A stretch of DNA of 64,000 bases from an uncultured Chlamydiales bacterium. GTDB taxonomy: Bacteria; Chlamydiota; Chlamydiia; Chlamydiales; JAAKFR01. Positions 27,001-33,000 of the stretch are shown here, in pieces (the first letter of the stretch is position 1; each line of letters opens with the position of its first letter). The stretch is from contig OY969414.1 of assembly GCA_963699155.1 (NCBI GenBank), positions 709,327 to 773,326 of the forward strand, written 5' to 3'. The position numbers were made by a program.

Positions 27001-30000
27001 GTCTCCAATGCTTCTGCATCATCACCACCGTGGAAGAATAGAGGCACCAGCCCAAACTCAGATAGTGGTAAGCGCCAGCCCAAACTCAGGTTGTGCTGAC
27101 TATGGGCGCTCTTGTCTGGGTAGAATCAGAGAGAGATATTTATTTCAGGGCTCGTAGGATGGATCTCTATCTCTACTGCGAAGCTGGCTGTTTGAGGACC
27201 TAATAAACCCGACTCATAAGGAACATTGAGGATCCCTATGTCTTTAGTTATTTTGTCAACCGGTGGCTTAGCGATTTGGAAATCCAAACTTTGAGGTTCC
27301 TGCAGCGGAAGGCTATACATGGGAAGTCGATATGGGGAGCGCGTGAAAGCGTTAGAGAGAAGGGGGTTTGCCCCCTTCCCTTGCTCTTAACGACGGTCTG
27401 CGTCAGAATCTAAAAAGTTCCTCCCCATAGCTCAATAAGTCCCGCATAGAAGGACTTTATGGATGCTCTATTAATATCATCAATGGTAAGGGAGCCGTCT
27501 TGATTTTGCTGTGCTCTTAATGCATCTTCGACAACTTCACCAGAAATAACTACTTTATATCCAGGAATTCTATTCGAAATAGGATAATACGTGGACCCAG
27601 TTGTGAAGAAAAGTGGCTGTAAAAAGACTTTAAAACGTTTTTCAGCATGAGGAAAAACGAACTTATCGTAGAACTCATTTTGACTCTCTTCGATTTCTTG
27701 GCAAACAGTCGTTCCGGGAGTTGCTCCATGAAGTTGTTTGCTCAGCGCCTCTAAAATAGTAGTTACAACGTATTTGCGCGTTGCGGTTAATGCTTTAACG
27801 ACAGGTTCACCATATCCACCGACATCCTGCAAGGTATCGGCTTCAATTAGACCCTCTAGTTCTTTTGTGAGAACACTATTGCAAAAAAGTGACATAAAAA
27901 TACCTCTTTAAAGTTTTTTGTTTTTTATCACTCTAAGGAGGCATCATCACTTTTTAAGAGCCTCCTTGAGTGTGGAAGAAATGCTTTTTAGGGCATTTGA
28001 CCCCCTGGTGATTTTGGCAATACTAGTGCCTAAATGTCGGGCGATTTCCCTTTGGGTTTTTTCACCGCTCAACAATTCTTGGATGATGAGGAAACGGAGG
28101 CCTAAATCATGCCTCTCCTCATACGTTAAAAAGAGATCGAGATACAATTGGACCTCTTTCCTGCTTTTCAACGTGGCAAGGAAGTCGGTAAACCCCCGCC
28201 AGCCATCCTCCGCATTTTGGCTTGCTTTCATAGCAACTCCATTGTGTTAGTGGTGTTGCTTCCCTTCGGGAAAAGTGAAGCAACAACCCCATTGTTTTTG
28301 TACAGTCGTAATAGTACATGAGTACGTTCATTTTCGTCAACATCCTATTTTCGGATTTTTTAAAAACCCAATACTCAGGTTAAAAAGGTGAGCCATTGCT
28401 AGCGCAACGGTTAGCTGAAGTTTGGAATTCAATTGCCCCGGCGCCGAAGGTCGCTCGCGGCCCTCCTCGGGCCGCTGCCACTCCCAACGGCGCCAATTGC
28501 CGAGCCGCTGATATCTTCATAGGTAATAACTTTCCTGGAGCTATTATGGAGCCTCAACAACCCTATTCAGAAATCTTCTCTTCCAAGTGCAAAGCCTCGT
28601 CTGAGAAGTCCCAGAAGAACTCAGATAGAAATAAGATGGTCAGCGTTAGATGTATACTGCCACCGAGAACATTGGACACGGATTTGCGATATACTTAATC
28701 GCAAAACCAAGGAGATCCAACATGGAAGAAGGTGGTCAAATCAAACGATGGACCGCGGCACGTAAGATTGAAGTTGTCTTACGTCTATTAAAAGGAGAGT
28801 CCATCGATAAACTAAGTCGAGAACTCGGTGTAGAGGCTTATTTAATCGAAGAATGGCATTCAAAAGCAATTCAGGGCATGGAAGTGGGATTAAAAATGCG
28901 TTCCGAAGACCCTGTTCAACATGAATTAGACCATGCTAAGAAACGCCTGGGAGAGCTCATGATGGAAAACGAGCTCTTGCAGATAAAGGCCAACAAAGCA
29001 CCGGGTTTTCGTATGGGGAGGTCCAAGAAATGAGCGAGAAGATCTCTCCTTCAACCCATCTTAAATATGGTGTAGAATTAGTTTGTACAGTGTGGAAGTT
29101 TCCTCGCTCATCTTTCTATCATAATAGAAAGCGGCCATATAAACCTAAGGGGCTTCGAGGAAAAAAGCCGACCCTCTCAGACAATGATCTATTGGAGGCC
29201 ATCAAAAAAGACATATCCGAAAGCCACTTTCAAGGAGAAGGACATCGAAAAATACATGCTCGATTAAAACGCTTCAAGAAACTAAATATTGGGCGGAATC
29301 GAGTTTTGAAGCTAATGAGAGAGCATAAAATGCTCTCTCCGTATCGCGTTGAACAGGGAAAAGAACGCCTACATGATGGACGCATTACAACAGACCGCCC
29401 CAATGAAATGTGGGGTACAGATGCCGCTAAGATTTTCACCCTCGAAGATGGGTGGGTGTGGTTTTTCGGAGTAATTGAACATTGGAATGCTGAATGTCTA
29501 GGGTGGCATGTCACAAAGAAAGGAAGTCGATTTGCTGCAATAGAAGCCTTAAATAAGGCTGTTGAGGTTGTTTTTAGCAAAACATCCTCTAATGTGGCTC
29601 GTGGGGTCAGTTTACGAGTAGATCATGGCTCTCAATTTATGTCAGAAGGCTTTATTAACCAAACACGGTACTGGGGCATAAGTATAAGCAAGGGCTTTGT
29701 GAAGGAGCCTGAAACCAACGGGGTGATAGAAAGGTTTCACAGAACATTTAAGGAGCAGATTGTACACGGTAGGCATTATCATGGCCTAGAAGACTTTAGG
29801 AAGGCTGTAGCAGAGTTCATTAAGTCGTACAATGAACACTGGCTTTTAGAAAAGCTAGATTATCACTCCCCTCTGGAAGCCAGGGAGTTATATTCCAAAG
29901 AACACCCTTCTGAACAAATTTTATCGGCGTTAGCTGAGGTTGGAGAGGGAGCACGGCTACTTTGTTCTGGCAAGGATATGATAGCAAAAACTGAGAATTT

Positions 30001-33000
30001 TAGAATAATTTTAAAGCGACGGAAGAAATTTACGCAAATTTGTGTCCAAAGAAATGGTGGCGATACAGTCAGCGTTAGATGATCTTCTGCCGAGTGACCA
30101 CAAAGTACGTTTTGTTTGGGATTTTGTATGACAACTCATATCTTGGCATTGTTTTAGGTAACATAAAGTCAGCAAAGGCAAAGCAGGTCATCAAGCGACA
30201 GATCCAAAGGTTAGGATAATGAAGATGGCTTGTGGAGGATTAATCCTGCCTATAACGTGCAATTTGCCACAGAGATCACAAGTCGAGTGATTAAAGGAGT
30301 GGCTCGGTAATTGGCGCCGTTGGGAGTGGCAGCGGCCCATTGAGGGCCGCGAGCGACCTTCGGCGCCCCACCCGCGCCTGAGACCGAGGCTGCGCCAGCA
30401 GGCGAGGGTCTCAGCGACGGGCCTAATAGATCGATTTTTTCACAGCCTCGAAGCGCCCGTTCGAAGGCAAGAGTGGCGAGGCATTAGTCACGTAAGATGT
30501 AACCTGAGAGGCTTTCACTGTCACAGGGTTTGACCAGCACCCGAAAGTGCGGGACCGCACGGAGTGCCCGTTCGAAGGCAAGAGTGGCGAGGCATTAGTC
30601 ACGTAAGATGTAACCTGAGAGGCTTTCACTGCCACAGGGTTTGACCAGCACCCGAAAGTGCGGGACCGCACGGAGTGCCCGTTCGAAGGCAAGAGTGGCG
30701 AGGCATTAGTCACGTAAGATGTAACCTGAGAGGCTTTCACTGCCACAGGGTTTGACCAGCACCCGAAAGTGCGGGACCGCACGGAGTGCCCGTTCGAAGG
30801 CAAGAGTGGCGAGGCATTAGTCACGTAAGATGTAACCTGAGAGGCTTTCACTGCCACAGGGTTTGACCAGCACCCGAAAGTGCGGGACCGCACGGAGTGC
30901 CCGTTCGAAGGCAAGAGTGGCGAGGCATTAGTCACGTAAGATGTAACCTGAGAGGCTTTCACTGCCACAGGGTTTGACCAGCACCCGAAAGTGCGGGACC
31001 GCACGGAGTGCCCGTTCGAAGGCAAGAGTGGCGAGGCATTAGTCACGTAAGATGTAACCTGAGAGGCTTTCACTGTCACAGGGTTTGACCAGCACCCGAA
31101 AGTGCGGGACCGCACGGAGTGCCCGTTCGAAGGCAAGAGTGGCGAGGCATTAGTCACGTAAGATGTAACCTGAGAGGCTTTCACTGTCACAGGGTTTGAC
31201 CAGCACCCGAAAGTGCGGGACCGCACGGAGTGCCCGTTCGAAGGCAAGAGTGGCGAGGCATTAGTCACGTAAGATGTAACCTGAGAGGCTTTCACTGTCA
31301 CAGGGTTTGACCAGCACCCGAAAGTGCGGGACCGCACGGAGTGCCCGTTCGAAGGCAAGAGTGGCGAGGCATTAGTCACGTAAGATGTAACCTGAGAGGC
31401 TTTCACTGCCACAGGGTTTGACCAGCACCCGAAAGTGCGGGACCGCGCCGAAGGCGCAGCCGAGTGCTGAAGCCGCGGGTAATTGATAAATTAATTCGAG
31501 AAACGTCCAAACTTCAGGTAGGCCCTACGGACCTTGGGATATCCTACATATCATGCCGCTTGCGATCTTTCATATCCTTGTTTCTTTCTTTTCTTTCCCT
31601 CGCTGAGACTCTCGGCTGCTGGAGCAGCCTCGGTCTCAGGCGCGGGTGGGGGGCGCCGAAGGTCGCTCGCGGCCCTCTTCGGGCCGCTGCCACTCCCAAC
31701 GGCGCCAATTGCCGAGCGGCTATCCTCAACACCCAATTCAGGAATCTTCTCTTCCATGTGCAAAGCCTCGTCTGAGAAGCCCCAGAAGGACTCAGATAGA
31801 AATAAGATGGTCAGCGTTAGATGATCTTCTGCCGAGTGACCACAAAGTACGTTTTGTTTGGGATTTTGTAGGACAAATTAAAGTCAGCTCCAAGGCTAGG
31901 ATAATAAGTAGTGGCTCGGCAATTGGCGCCGTTGGGAGTGGCAGCGGCCCGAAGAGGGCCGCGAGCGACCTTCGGCGCCCCCACCCGCGCCTGTGACCGA
32001 GGTGCAGCCGAGTGACGAAGCCGGGGCAATTAATTAATTTGGCAATGTCCAAACTCAGGTTTATAGCCTGACTAGATAGGAGACGAGGGAGATGGCGAAG
32101 GCGGCGAAGACAGGGGTGCGGCGCATGCGCATCTCGTAGAGTTTATGGAGAATGGTGAGGATCGAGAGGATGATGAGGCCGGGGCAGAGAATCTGGAGGA
32201 TTGGCGAGAGCATCTGTGCGATGCCCATGAAGCCGAGATTGGCGATCGCCATGGAGAGGCCGAGAGAGAGGAGGATGGCAACATGGATGCTTCCCTTACT
32301 CCTCATGAAATCTTTGTGGATGTACTCGGCGGAGATCACAGCGATGGGGATGGCGGTGGTCAGACAGGCCATCGACACAGCGATGCAGGAGAAGAGGGCA
32401 CCGGTTGGGCCGAGAAGGTAGCGAGAAACGACGGCAAGCCGCTCCTCGGGTTCATGAGCTTCAAGAACGGGAGTATAGAAGGAGGCGAGATAGGTCAGAC
32501 CGACATACATTGCGGCCAGAAGGGCGCCTGCGATGACACAGGCTTTGACCATTTTCTTAAAGACCTGGCGCTTCGATTCGGCTGTGGGTTCTCCTTTCTG
32601 ATCAGAGATAAAATAGGAGAGTACAAGGGGGGCAAAGATGAAGGAAGCAATCAGATCGAGCGTGTTATAGCCCACATTTAAGCCATAGAAGAAAGAGTCT
32701 TTGTTGCTGATGTCAACGGTTACTTGAGCGGGTGGATTGATAAAACCTGTTATCAAAATCGATCCTAAAGCAATCAAGAGAAGGGGACAGAGATAAAGAC
32801 CCATAATCTCTATAATTTTATGCTTTTTGACGGTGAAGAGATAGACGAGGCCGCACGCCAAGAAGCTAAAGAGGGCCAATGAGATAAATTCGGGCATGTA
32901 AGGTTTGAGAGTGGCATGAGCCAAAGTGATCAAGCGAGGAATCGATCCAAAGGGTCCCAAGATTGCCTGAATGAGAAAAACAAGCACAATTCCCGATTTT

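What the first reader, a model, noticed from the sequence alone, without database searches (positions are those of the whole stretch)
28431..32060. 3.8-kb nest of mobile and repeat DNA between trpR and brnQ with a repeated modular layout
**Layout, left to right:**
- long inverted repeat (28431-28506);
- IS1182/IS5-like transposase remnant, split by an intact IS3-family element;
- inverted repeat (30301-30416);
- the 9 x 111-bp array;
- a terminal module of about 70 bp (31447-31520: gcagccgagtgctgaagccgcgggtaattgataaattaatt...gtccaaacttcaggt);
- a second, smaller copy of the same element (inverted repeats at 31601-31717 and 31913-31995);
- the same terminal module again (31996-32060: gcagccgagtgacgaagccggggcaattaattaatt...gtccaaactcaggt), which runs into the brnQ stop codon.

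**What is unusual.** The inverted repeats are about 75-115 bp, far longer than typical IS1182/IS5 ends. They contain their own internal palindrome (tgagaccgaggctgc...gcgagggtctca). The array sits exactly where copy B has nothing, between the right inverted repeat and the terminal module. The 111-bp unit may therefore be a variable-copy component of this element.

A short motif, GCGCC..GTT...GAGTGGC, is shared between the inverted repeat and the unit core. That similarity is weak.
Basis: partly seen in the sequence, partly recalled or inferred. Interest (0 to 1): 0.55.

Follow-up and report, generated by a model that had tools for sequence, protein, structure and literature searches.

The report
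Decayed IS1182 copies beside repeat array
This is a pile-up of dead and live insertion sequences plus an unrelated 111-bp tandem repeat in a variable gap of an environmental chlamydial genome; it is mostly ordinary, but the dead element has unusually long, hairpin-rich inverted repeats just inside its true ends.

Summary
The layout is real and the coordinates are nearly right.

- **What is there.** Two internally deleted copies (A, B) of one IS1182-family element share the same deletion junctions. Each has 70-126 nt inverted arms that fold into two hairpins. An IS3-family element splits copy A. A 111-bp x 8.9 array and a roughly 70-nt 'terminal module' are also confirmed.
- **The long repeats are not the termini.** A canonical IS1182-type tip (30433-30449, GATTTTTTCACAGCCTC) matches the 16-21-nt IRs of the closest full-length relatives (0 of 1000 shuffles). 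It lies outside the long right arm and 2 nt before the array. The long arms are therefore subterminal.
- **The array is not a module of the element.** Diverged units (69-78% identical) occur at two other places in the window, next to tRNA-Phe (112 bp x 4) and tRNA-Ser (one copy). Neither has arms or terminal modules nearby. The 'shared motif' is no better than chance.
- **Context.** The roughly 5 kb from ispF to brnQ, including trpR, is missing from the same gap in related Chlamydiales MAGs.
- **Relatives.** None were found for the arms or the unit in any collection I could search, but the source genome was withheld.
- **Verdict.** This is an insertion hotspot holding a decayed IS1182 variant. 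Interest is modest.

The parts
27079..27102 (+). Short direct repeat of the brnQ-proximal junction (CCAAACTCAGGTT..CTGACTA), just after the ispF stop. It marks the left edge of the lineage-specific ~5-kb segment.
   Evidence: Local alignment with 32049-32075 scores 30 against 16.9 +/- 2.7; 1 of 500 shuffles reaches it. Motif hits.
27947..28231 (-). trpR. Together with the upstream 161-aa ORF (27410-27895) it lies inside the segment that relatives lack at this site.
   Evidence: Pfam Trp_repressor E 6.8e-24. No tblastn hit in relatives' ispF-brnQ loci.
28411..28439 (-). Degenerate, inverted copy of the 'terminal module' (T module), fused directly to the left arm of copy A. The outer hairpin is deleted here.
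   Evidence: nhmmer E 3e-7; alignment; present in short-read contig L016.
28440..28509 (+). Copy A, left long inverted-repeat arm (core).
   Evidence: 70 nt; 93-98% identical or complementary to the three other arms.
28510..28652 (+). Copy A, IS1182 transposase remnant, 5' part (N-terminal residues up to the IS3 insertion point).
   Evidence: tblastn of P0146/P0148/P0141 across the IS3-deleted sequence, E 1e-15 to 1e-16, with two in-frame stops; NF033551 E 1.4e-7.
28653..30069 (+). IS3-family insertion sequence (orfA 28722-29033, orfB 29030-30082). It is flanked by a 12-14-bp duplication (GT)CAGCGTTAGATG of the remnant.
   Evidence: Pfam HTH_Tnp_1, rve, rve_3, HTH_21. NF033516 scores 155 bits against a cutoff of 160. 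Boundaries come from a 99.8% identical copy in Logan contig L002. There are 15 OrfB variants in the 90% cluster, 14 of them on the source genome's contig.
30070..30293 (+). Copy A, IS1182 transposase remnant, 3' part. It holds residues ~40-87 fused at a 'TDP' microhomology to residues ~257-289 (the PAYNVQ region); the rest of the gene is deleted.
   Evidence: tblastn.
30294..30420 (+). Copy A, right long arm: core 30298-30367, a C-rich linker, and the outer hairpin TGAGACC..GGTCTCA at 30383-30414.
   Evidence: 118-nt, 92% match to the B-left arm. It folds into two hairpins, z = -4.0.
30433..30449 (+). Canonical IS1182-type right terminal inverted repeat (GATTTTTTCACAGCCTC; reverse complement GAGGCTGTGAAAAAATC). 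This is the true right tip of copy A.
   Evidence: Score 28 against 10.3 +/- 2.0 versus the L017 IRL, and 25 versus both L018 IRs; 0 of 1000 shuffles reach these. It is the only such site in the window.
30452..31446 (+). Tandem array of an unrelated non-coding unit, 111 bp x 8.9, 99% identical. It starts 2 nt after the IS tip and ends inside the unit's 3' GC hairpin.
   Evidence: TRF. nhmmer finds units here and at two other loci. The unit folds no better than shuffles. No Rfam match.
31447..31519 (+). T module after the array. Its first ~25 nt are homologous to the 3' half of the outer hairpin; an AT-rich stretch and GTCCAAACTTCAGGT follow.
   Evidence: Alignments.
31597..31722 (+). Copy B, left arm (outer hairpin plus core). 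There is no T module or canonical tip outside it.
   Evidence: fold z = -2.1.
31723..31908 (+). Copy B, IS1182 remnant (residues ~8-73 only). It shares copy A's sequence at 95-99% and has two further deletions.
   Evidence: Direct repeats D2 and D5. tblastn E 1e-17. phmmer finds 180 hits, the best at 52% identity.
31909..32002 (+). Copy B, right arm (core plus the 5' half of the outer hairpin).
   Evidence: 74 nt, 97% complementary to the B-left arm.
32003..32060 (+). T module of copy B. It abuts the brnQ stop codon.
   Evidence: Identical in short-read contig L001.
46994..47451 (+). Second locus of the unit family: 112 bp x ~4, starting 109 nt 3' of tRNA-Phe. No arm or T module is nearby.
61691..61818 (-). 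Third locus of the unit family: a single unit plus ~15 nt of a second, starting 107 nt 3' of tRNA-Ser on the opposite strand.

Best explanation
The interval is an insertion hotspot between the convergent 3' ends of ispF and brnQ. Three unrelated repeat types have accumulated there.

**1. A decayed IS1182-family element, present as two non-autonomous copies.** Copies A and B come from one already-deleted ancestor, because they share deletion junctions. The element's architecture differs from its nearest relatives. Reading from the right tip inward, it runs: short canonical terminal repeat, about 19 nt of spacer, a GC-rich hairpin, a C-rich linker, a 70-nt arm that is itself a hairpin, and then the transposase gene. 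The long 'inverted repeats' are therefore subterminal parts of the untranslated ends, mirrored on both sides. Only the right tip of copy A survives. The other tips were lost or replaced by the 'T module', a diverged version of the outer end.

**2. A still-active IS3-family element.** It inserted into the remnant of copy A.

**3. A 111-bp tandem array of a separate, lineage-restricted, non-coding repeat family.** It sits against the IS tip. I infer the cause is hairpin targeting. IS1182-family elements (IS1272, TnSha1) integrate at the base of hairpins, and each unit ends in a GC hairpin (GTGCGGGACCGCAC).

**Shown:** the anatomy, the homologies, the position of the tip, and the independence of the unit family.

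**Inferred:** the order of events, the hairpin targeting, and that the long arms were part of the functional element.
For: **IS1182 identity**
- NF033551 hits the remnant.
- tblastn to P0146, P0148 and P0141 gives E 1e-15 to 1e-17, covering residues 24-87 and 257-289.
- Those full-length proteins pass the curated IS1182 cutoff.

**Common origin of A and B**
- Internal sequence is 95-99% identical, and B's extra deletions are nested in A's sequence.

**Canonical tip outside the arm**
- The tip lies at 30433-30449; 0 of 1000 shuffles reach its match to relatives' IRs.
- Relatives L017 and L018 have only 16-21-nt IRs and 65-123-nt leaders without long arms.
- The arms fold into two hairpins each (z = -2.1 and -4.0).

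**Independence of the unit family**
- It occurs at three loci.
- No arm or T module occurs elsewhere in the window.
- No significant similarity links the unit to the arm, tip or T module.
- The second array's period of 112 is not a multiple of 3, so the 329-aa ORF over array 1 is incidental.

**Hotspot**
- In L003, L005, L007 and L008, brnQ and ispF are neighbours, 315 nt apart in L003. None of those loci holds trpR, orf161 or any nest sequence.

**Hairpin targeting in the family**
- PMC4923244 and PMC5678879 document it.

**Not an artefact at the edges**
- L001 and L016 match the window at 100%.
Against: - Only two copies exist, both in one locus. The source genome was withheld, so no full-length copy with both tips could be examined.
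- No left canonical tip was found, so 'subterminal on both sides' rests on symmetry.
- The T module forms an inverted pair around copy A plus the array (28411-28439 versus 31505-31519). That pairing can also be read as the array lying inside a T-bounded element.
- T tips are only weakly similar to IS1182 IRs (23 to 996 of 1000 shuffles reach the observed scores across comparisons), so the nature of the T module is unresolved.
- Hairpin targeting is documented for staphylococcal IS1272. It is not documented for this lineage.
Confidence: 0.65

Rival explanations
1. There is one composite mobile element bounded by T modules. Its long inverted repeats are its ends, and the 111-bp unit is a variable-copy internal module (9 copies in A, 0 in B).
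For: - T modules form an inverted pair around copy A plus the array. Both tips read CTGAAGTTTGGA, with the extra A.
- The array lies between the right arm and the T module.
- IS1272 is known to form variants with tandem duplication of an end segment (PMC5678879).
Against: - The unit family occurs at two other loci without arms or T modules.
- No significant unit-to-end similarity exists.
- A canonical IS1182 tip separates the arm from the array.
- Copy B lacks the tip and half of the hairpin at that spot. It is a deletion product, not an empty slot.
Confidence: 0.12
2. The long arms are not part of the IS. They are the two halves of a pre-existing palindromic intergenic element (REP/BIME-like or a large terminator) into which a hairpin-seeking IS1182-family element inserted. 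The block was later duplicated locally.
For: - IS1182-family members target hairpins and palindromes (PMC4923244, PMC5678879).
- The site lies between convergent genes, where terminators are expected.
- The arms are hairpin-rich.
- The flank of relative L017 is also rich in GC hairpins.
Against: - The canonical tip lies outside the arm and hairpin, not between arm and transposase.
- Homology to transposase N-termini runs up to the inner edge of the left arm.
- The arms occur nowhere else in the 64 kb. Their core 22-25-mers gave no match in 185,579 species genomes or IMG/VR, and only one chance hit in JGI metagenomes. The whole region gave no arm match in plasmid or phage records.
- Relatives' ispF-brnQ gaps hold no such palindrome.
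Confidence: 0.12
3. The nest, or at least the 9-copy array, is an assembly artefact of mis-resolved repeats.
For: - The genome is a single 2.4-Mb contig, its close relatives are metagenome-assembled genomes, and short-read contigs break in the arms.
- The array is 99% uniform.
Against: - Both outer junctions are reproduced at 100% in an independent short-read assembly.
- The copies differ by specific indels and substitutions rather than being identical.
- Array units carry a patterned T/C polymorphism.
Confidence: 0.04
4. The array encodes a repeat protein: the 329-aa ORF on the minus strand, made of 37-aa repeats.
For: An open frame runs through the whole array, and there is a nominal Pfam 'CX module' hit.
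Against: - The homologous array at 46994-47451 has period 112, not a multiple of 3, and no ORF runs through it.
- The Pfam hit has no individually significant stretch.
- The exact 329-aa ORF is not in the 15-billion-protein collection, which holds five other proteins of this window from the source genome.
Confidence: 0.02

Closest known systems
IS1182 family insertion sequences, e.g. IS1272/TnSha1 of staphylococci and the uncharacterised elements on Logan contigs L017 and L018
   Same: The transposase N-terminus and the PAYNVQ region are homologous. The right tip GAGGCTGTGAAAAAAT matches GAGYTTGTGAAAMAAT (L017) and CAGGATGTGAAAAAAT (L018). The element sits at a hairpin-rich site between convergent genes, in line with the documented hairpin targeting.
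   Different: The transposase is destroyed. Each end carries a ~120-nt extra segment of two GC-rich hairpins that mirrors the other end; the relatives examined lack this. No left tip and no clear target duplication were found. No relative closer than ~50% amino-acid identity exists among 1.84 billion cluster representatives.
MITEs (non-autonomous deletion derivatives of insertion sequences)
   Same: Copy B is ~410-460 bp, has no functional gene, consists mostly of inverted repeats and derives from an IS by internal deletion.
   Different: Only two adjacent copies are known rather than a dispersed family. Intact tips and target duplications are not demonstrable, so mobility is unproven. The pair could equally have arisen by local duplication.
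REP/BIME- or RIME-type intergenic mosaic elements
   Same: There is a mosaic of GC-rich palindromic units and other short modules in an intergenic region, with IS elements nested in it.
   Different: The modules are not high-copy: there are none elsewhere in the 64 kb and none in the public collections searched. The arms are far longer than 35-40-nt REPs and are tied to a transposase remnant.
IS3 family insertion sequences
   Same: orfA (HTH) and orfB (rve DDE) overlap by ATGA. The element is ~1.4 kb with imperfect terminal repeats, and the OrfB cluster has many members on the source genome's contig.
   Different: It is flanked here by a 12-14-bp duplication rather than the usual 3-5 bp. orfB scores just under NCBIfam's IS3 cutoff (155 versus 160 bits).

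Membership tests
IS1182 family IS | DDE transposase homologous to the IS1182 family profile | tested here: met
   The remnant hits NF033551 (E 1.4e-7, profile positions 2-57). tblastn to transposases above the curated cutoff gives E 1e-15 to 1e-17. Only residues ~8-87 and ~257-289 remain.
IS1182 family IS | Intact transposase gene (autonomous element) | tested here: not met
   There are two in-frame stops, frameshifts, deletion of residues ~88-256 and beyond ~290, and an IS3 insertion.
IS1182 family IS | Short terminal inverted repeats at both ends | tested here: inconclusive
   The right tip of copy A matches relatives' IRs (0 of 1000 shuffles). No left tip exists in the window. Copy B has neither.
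IS1182 family IS | Insertion into hairpin or palindromic targets, with no or variable target duplication | tested here: inconclusive
   The tip abuts the array, at the unit position that in the following units comes just after the 3' GC hairpin. No empty site is available for comparison.
MITE | Small, non-coding, with terminal inverted repeats derived from a parent IS | tested here: met
   Copy B spans 31597-32002/32060; its arms are 74 nt at 97%.
MITE | Multiple dispersed copies with target-site duplications | tested here: not met
   Only two adjacent copies exist in the 64 kb. The arms' core 22-25-mers gave nothing in GTDB species genomes or IMG/VR and one chance hit in JGI metagenomes. The region gave no arm match in PLSDB or INPHARED.
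REP/BIME-like palindromic units | Short imperfect palindromes, high copy number, spread over intergenic regions | tested here: not met
   All four arms lie in this one locus.
IS3 family IS | orfA (HTH) plus orfB (rve DDE integrase core) | tested here: met
   Pfam and NCBIfam hits.
IS3 family IS | 3-5-bp target duplication | tested here: not met
   A 12-14-bp duplication (GT)CAGCGTTAGATG flanks the element; copy B serves as the uninterrupted reference.
Structured non-coding RNA (for the 111-bp unit) | Stable, conserved secondary structure or an Rfam match | tested here: not met
   Fold z-scores range from -0.7 to +0.8 on both strands. Only 2 compensatory pairs appear among 3 subfamilies. No Rfam hit even at E <= 10.

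The most novel reading that the evidence does not exclude
The 111/112-nt unit may be a new, lineage-restricted mobile or self-amplifying non-coding element. It settles at hairpin-rich, recombination-prone sites (the 3' flanks of tRNA-Phe and tRNA-Ser, and an IS end) and expands into tandem arrays. Alternatively or in addition, the two-hairpin subterminal arms may define a new IS1182 subgroup whose ends are recognised as structured DNA.
Probability: 0.15. Interest if true: 0.5.

Novelty: new variant of a known kind. Interest (0 to 1): 0.3.

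Why it matters
The practical value is mainly in annotation and genome evolution. The case shows how a gap between convergent genes in an environmental chlamydial genome grew from ~0.3 kb to ~5 kb by stacked insertions. It also shows that trpR sits inside that variable segment.

If the long hairpin-bearing subterminal arms prove to be a regular feature of intact copies, they would be a new end architecture for the IS1182 family. That family's hairpin-directed integration mechanism is still unexplained.

The unit family is a candidate marker for strain typing and a possible new repeat class. Nothing here points to a new biological system.

Tried and rejected
**Searches for relatives of the arm**
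- An exact 25-mer found nothing in 185,579 species genomes or in IMG/VR.
- A 22-mer in JGI metagenomes gave one chance hit inside an ABC-transporter ATPase gene.

**Searches for relatives of the unit**
- A degenerate 24-mer found nothing in JGI metagenomes or IMG/VR.
- nhmmer profiles of the unit and the arm found nothing in the 15 loci fetched by then (L001-L015).

**Other DNA searches**
- blastn of the whole nest against plasmids and phages returned only distant IS3 transposase fragments.

**Searches for a full-length parent**
- Two word-indexed protein searches with the remnant found nothing.
- The exhaustive search found only relatives at about 52% identity or less.
- Pfam did not detect the remnant.

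**Ideas tested and dropped**
- Arm-to-unit shared motif: not above chance.
- T module as an IS1182-type tip: not significant.
- T module linked to the other arrays: no.
- Unit as a structured RNA: rejected.
- Promoter and terminator scans: at background level.

**Access limits**
- The source genome could not be retrieved.
- A short-read contig across the T-module/copy-B junction could not be found by ORF look-up.

Full report
**Observation**

I read 27.6-33.0 kb of the window.

Four copies of a ~70-nt GC-rich core form two inverted pairs: 28440-28509 with 30298-30367 (copy A), and 31652-31721 with 31910-31979 (copy B). They are 93-98% identical or complementary. Their shared 26-mer occurs four times in the window and in none of 100 shuffles.

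The A-right and B-left arms continue outward through a C-rich linker and a 32-nt palindrome (TGAGACC..GGTCTCA), giving a 118-nt match at 92%. Each arm folds into two hairpins, better than shuffles (z = -2.1 and -4.0).

Tandem Repeats Finder reports 30455-31446 with period 111, 8.9 copies and 99% identity.

The 'terminal module' (T) occurs at 31445-31521 and 31993-63.

The flanking genes are TrpR and BrnQ. The span is 3.63 kb, not 3.8 kb.

**Source and assembly**

The window comes from a 2,399,326-bp contig that the tools would not release. Its closest available relatives are uncultured Chlamydiales MAGs; the best BrnQ match is 81% identical.

Two short-read contigs from run ERR11523669 match the window at 100%. 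They stop inside the arm cores at 28496 and 31973. That is the expected behaviour for a real repeat, and it confirms both outer junctions. The array copy number remains unverified.

**The transposase remnant**

Pfam saw nothing in the remnant. NCBIfam's IS1182 model hit the frame-corrected remnant (E 1.4e-7).

An exhaustive phmmer search of copy B's 61-aa reading frame against 1.84 billion representatives gave 180 hits. The best was 52% identical. The full-length hits P0146, P0148 and P0206 pass the curated IS1182 cutoff.

With the IS3 element removed, tblastn shows what copy A retains:
- residues ~24-87, with two in-frame stops;
- residues ~257-289 (the PAYNVQ region), joined at a 'TDP' microhomology.

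Copy B retains residues ~8-73 only. It shares A's sequence at 95-99% and carries two further deletions.

A and B therefore descend from one already-crippled element. No close parent exists in the searchable protein collections.

**Where the element really ends**

I fetched the DNA of the two nearest full-length relatives. They have ordinary short terminal repeats:
- L017: GAGTTTGTGAAAAAAT and GAGCTTGTGAAACAAT, 16 nt;
- L018: CAGGATGTGAAAAAATTTAAA, 21 nt, at the contig ends.

Their leaders are 65-123 nt and have no long arms.

The window holds exactly one matching site: 30433-30449, GATTTTTTCACAGCCTC, whose reverse complement is GAGGCTGTGAAAAAATC. It is oriented as a right end. Its score is 28 against 10.3 +/- 2.0 versus the L017 IRL, and 0 of 1000 shuffles reach it.

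This site lies outside the right arm and outer hairpin of copy A, 2 nt before the array begins. The long inverted repeats are therefore subterminal segments of the element's ends, not its termini.

Homology to transposase N-termini reaches the inner edge of the left arm, which fits arms lying in the untranslated leader and trailer. No left tip survives.

The first ~25 nt of the T module align with the 3' half of the outer hairpin; after that the sequences diverge. Its tip is not significantly similar to IS1182 IRs. I read T as a diverged or rearranged outer end, but this is unresolved.

**The IS3-family element**

It spans 28653-30069 and carries orfA (HTH_Tnp_1) and orfB (rve; NF033516, 155 bits). 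A 99.8% identical copy with different flanks exists in another metagenome (L002). Its OrfB cluster has 15 members, 14 of them on the source genome's contig. The element is probably active. Here it is flanked by an unusual 12-14-bp duplication.

**The array**

The unit is not private to this locus:
- a 112-bp x 4 array lies at 46994-47451, starting 109 nt after tRNA-Phe;
- a single inverted unit lies at 61691-61818, starting 107 nt after tRNA-Ser.

Between loci the units are 69-78% identical, and most conserved in the first 50 nt (74-88%). Within arrays they are 97-99% identical. Neither of the other loci has an arm, tip or T module nearby.

The unit folds no better than shuffles on either strand, shows almost no covariation and has no Rfam match.

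The 329-aa ORF over array 1 is incidental, because the homologous array has a period that is not divisible by three.

The array is therefore a neighbour of the element and not a module of it.

Its position against the IS tip has a possible explanation. Each unit ends in the GC hairpin GTGCGGGACCGCAC, and unit homology begins within a few nucleotides of the tip. IS1182-family elements IS1272 and TnSha1 insert at the base of hairpins without target duplication (PMC4923244, PMC5678879). That link is inference.

**Context**

In L003, L005, L007 and L008, ispF and brnQ are adjacent; the gap is 315 nt in L003. Neither trpR nor the 161-aa ORF is present at that site.

Roughly 27.1-32.06 kb of the window is therefore lineage-specific. 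A 24-27-nt direct repeat (CCAAACTCAGGTT..CTGACTA) marks both of its edges, and only 1 of 500 shuffles reaches the observed score.

In other relatives the brnQ 3' flank differs again. In relatives the tRNA-Phe flank carries an integrase or an AbiE module. All three unit loci thus sit in variable DNA.

**Comparison and verdict**

The nest works like, and is in part a member of, known kinds: a decayed IS1182-family element with MITE-like derivatives, an IS3-family insertion, and a tandem repeat.

Two things are new. One is the two-hairpin, ~120-nt subterminal mirror segments of the IS1182-like element, absent from the relatives examined. The other is an uncharacterised 111/112-nt repeat family. 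Neither could be followed beyond this window, because the source genome was withheld and no other collection holds relatives.

I rate the finding as a real but largely ordinary insertion hotspot. Two of its interpretive claims are not supported: that the long repeats are the ends, and that the array is a component of the element.

Noticed in passing
window 46994-47451: A 112-bp x ~4 tandem array, homologous to the 111-bp unit (78% identity), starts 109 nt 3' of tRNA-Phe (46811-46885). In relatives L012 and L014 the same tRNA flank carries an AbiE toxin-antitoxin module or a phage-type integrase instead, so this is an integration hotspot.
   Followed up: partly
window 61691-61818: A single unit of the same family, plus ~15 nt of a second, lies on the opposite strand, 107 nt 3' of tRNA-Ser (61497-61584). 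At all three loci the unit or units are followed by a partial repeat of the unit's first 10-15 nt. That pattern suggests amplification from a single unit flanked by a short direct repeat.
   Followed up: partly
window 28639-28652 and 30068-30081: The IS3-family element is flanked by a 12-14-bp duplication, (GT)CAGCGTTAGATG, far longer than the 3-5 bp usual for IS3. The orfB reading frame runs past the element's right end and stops in the duplicated flank.
   Followed up: partly
window 27045-27102 and 32049-32075: CCAAACTCAGGTT followed by ..CTGACTA occurs just after the ispF stop and again at the brnQ stop, so it is a direct repeat at both edges of the lineage-specific ~5 kb. Next to ispF the motif is itself tandemly duplicated with a 28-nt period. 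It could be a long target duplication or an attachment-site core; this is unexplained.
   Followed up: partly
window 27410-28231: trpR and an adjacent 161-aa ORF with no family match lie inside the segment that relatives lack between ispF and brnQ. trpR may have arrived with, or been trapped by, the mobile DNA.
   Followed up: partly
window 61872-61936 and 34352-34434: There are two near-perfect long palindromes: 32-nt arms at 97% with a 1-nt spacer, and 39-nt arms at 90% with a 5-nt spacer. The first hits generic miRNA hairpin models in Rfam below threshold.
   Followed up: no
window 60484-60960 and 60992-61465: Two tandem paralogous genes (158 and 157 aa) both start MAAAVSLQK and are predicted to be coiled-coil-like. 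They lie just upstream of tRNA-Ser.
   Followed up: no
window 18251-18349 and 25044-25224: Other short tandem repeats are present: 33 bp x 3, and 54 bp x 3. The 54-bp repeat appears to fall within the 340-aa gene that carries CLIPPER domain hits on contig L016.
   Followed up: no
L017 1583-1750: The DNA flanking the closest full-length IS1182 relative is packed with GC-rich hairpins (CCCTCCTTCGAGGG, CCCCTCCGGGG, GCCTTCCTTCGGGAGGC). This is consistent with hairpin-directed insertion in that lineage too.
   Followed up: no
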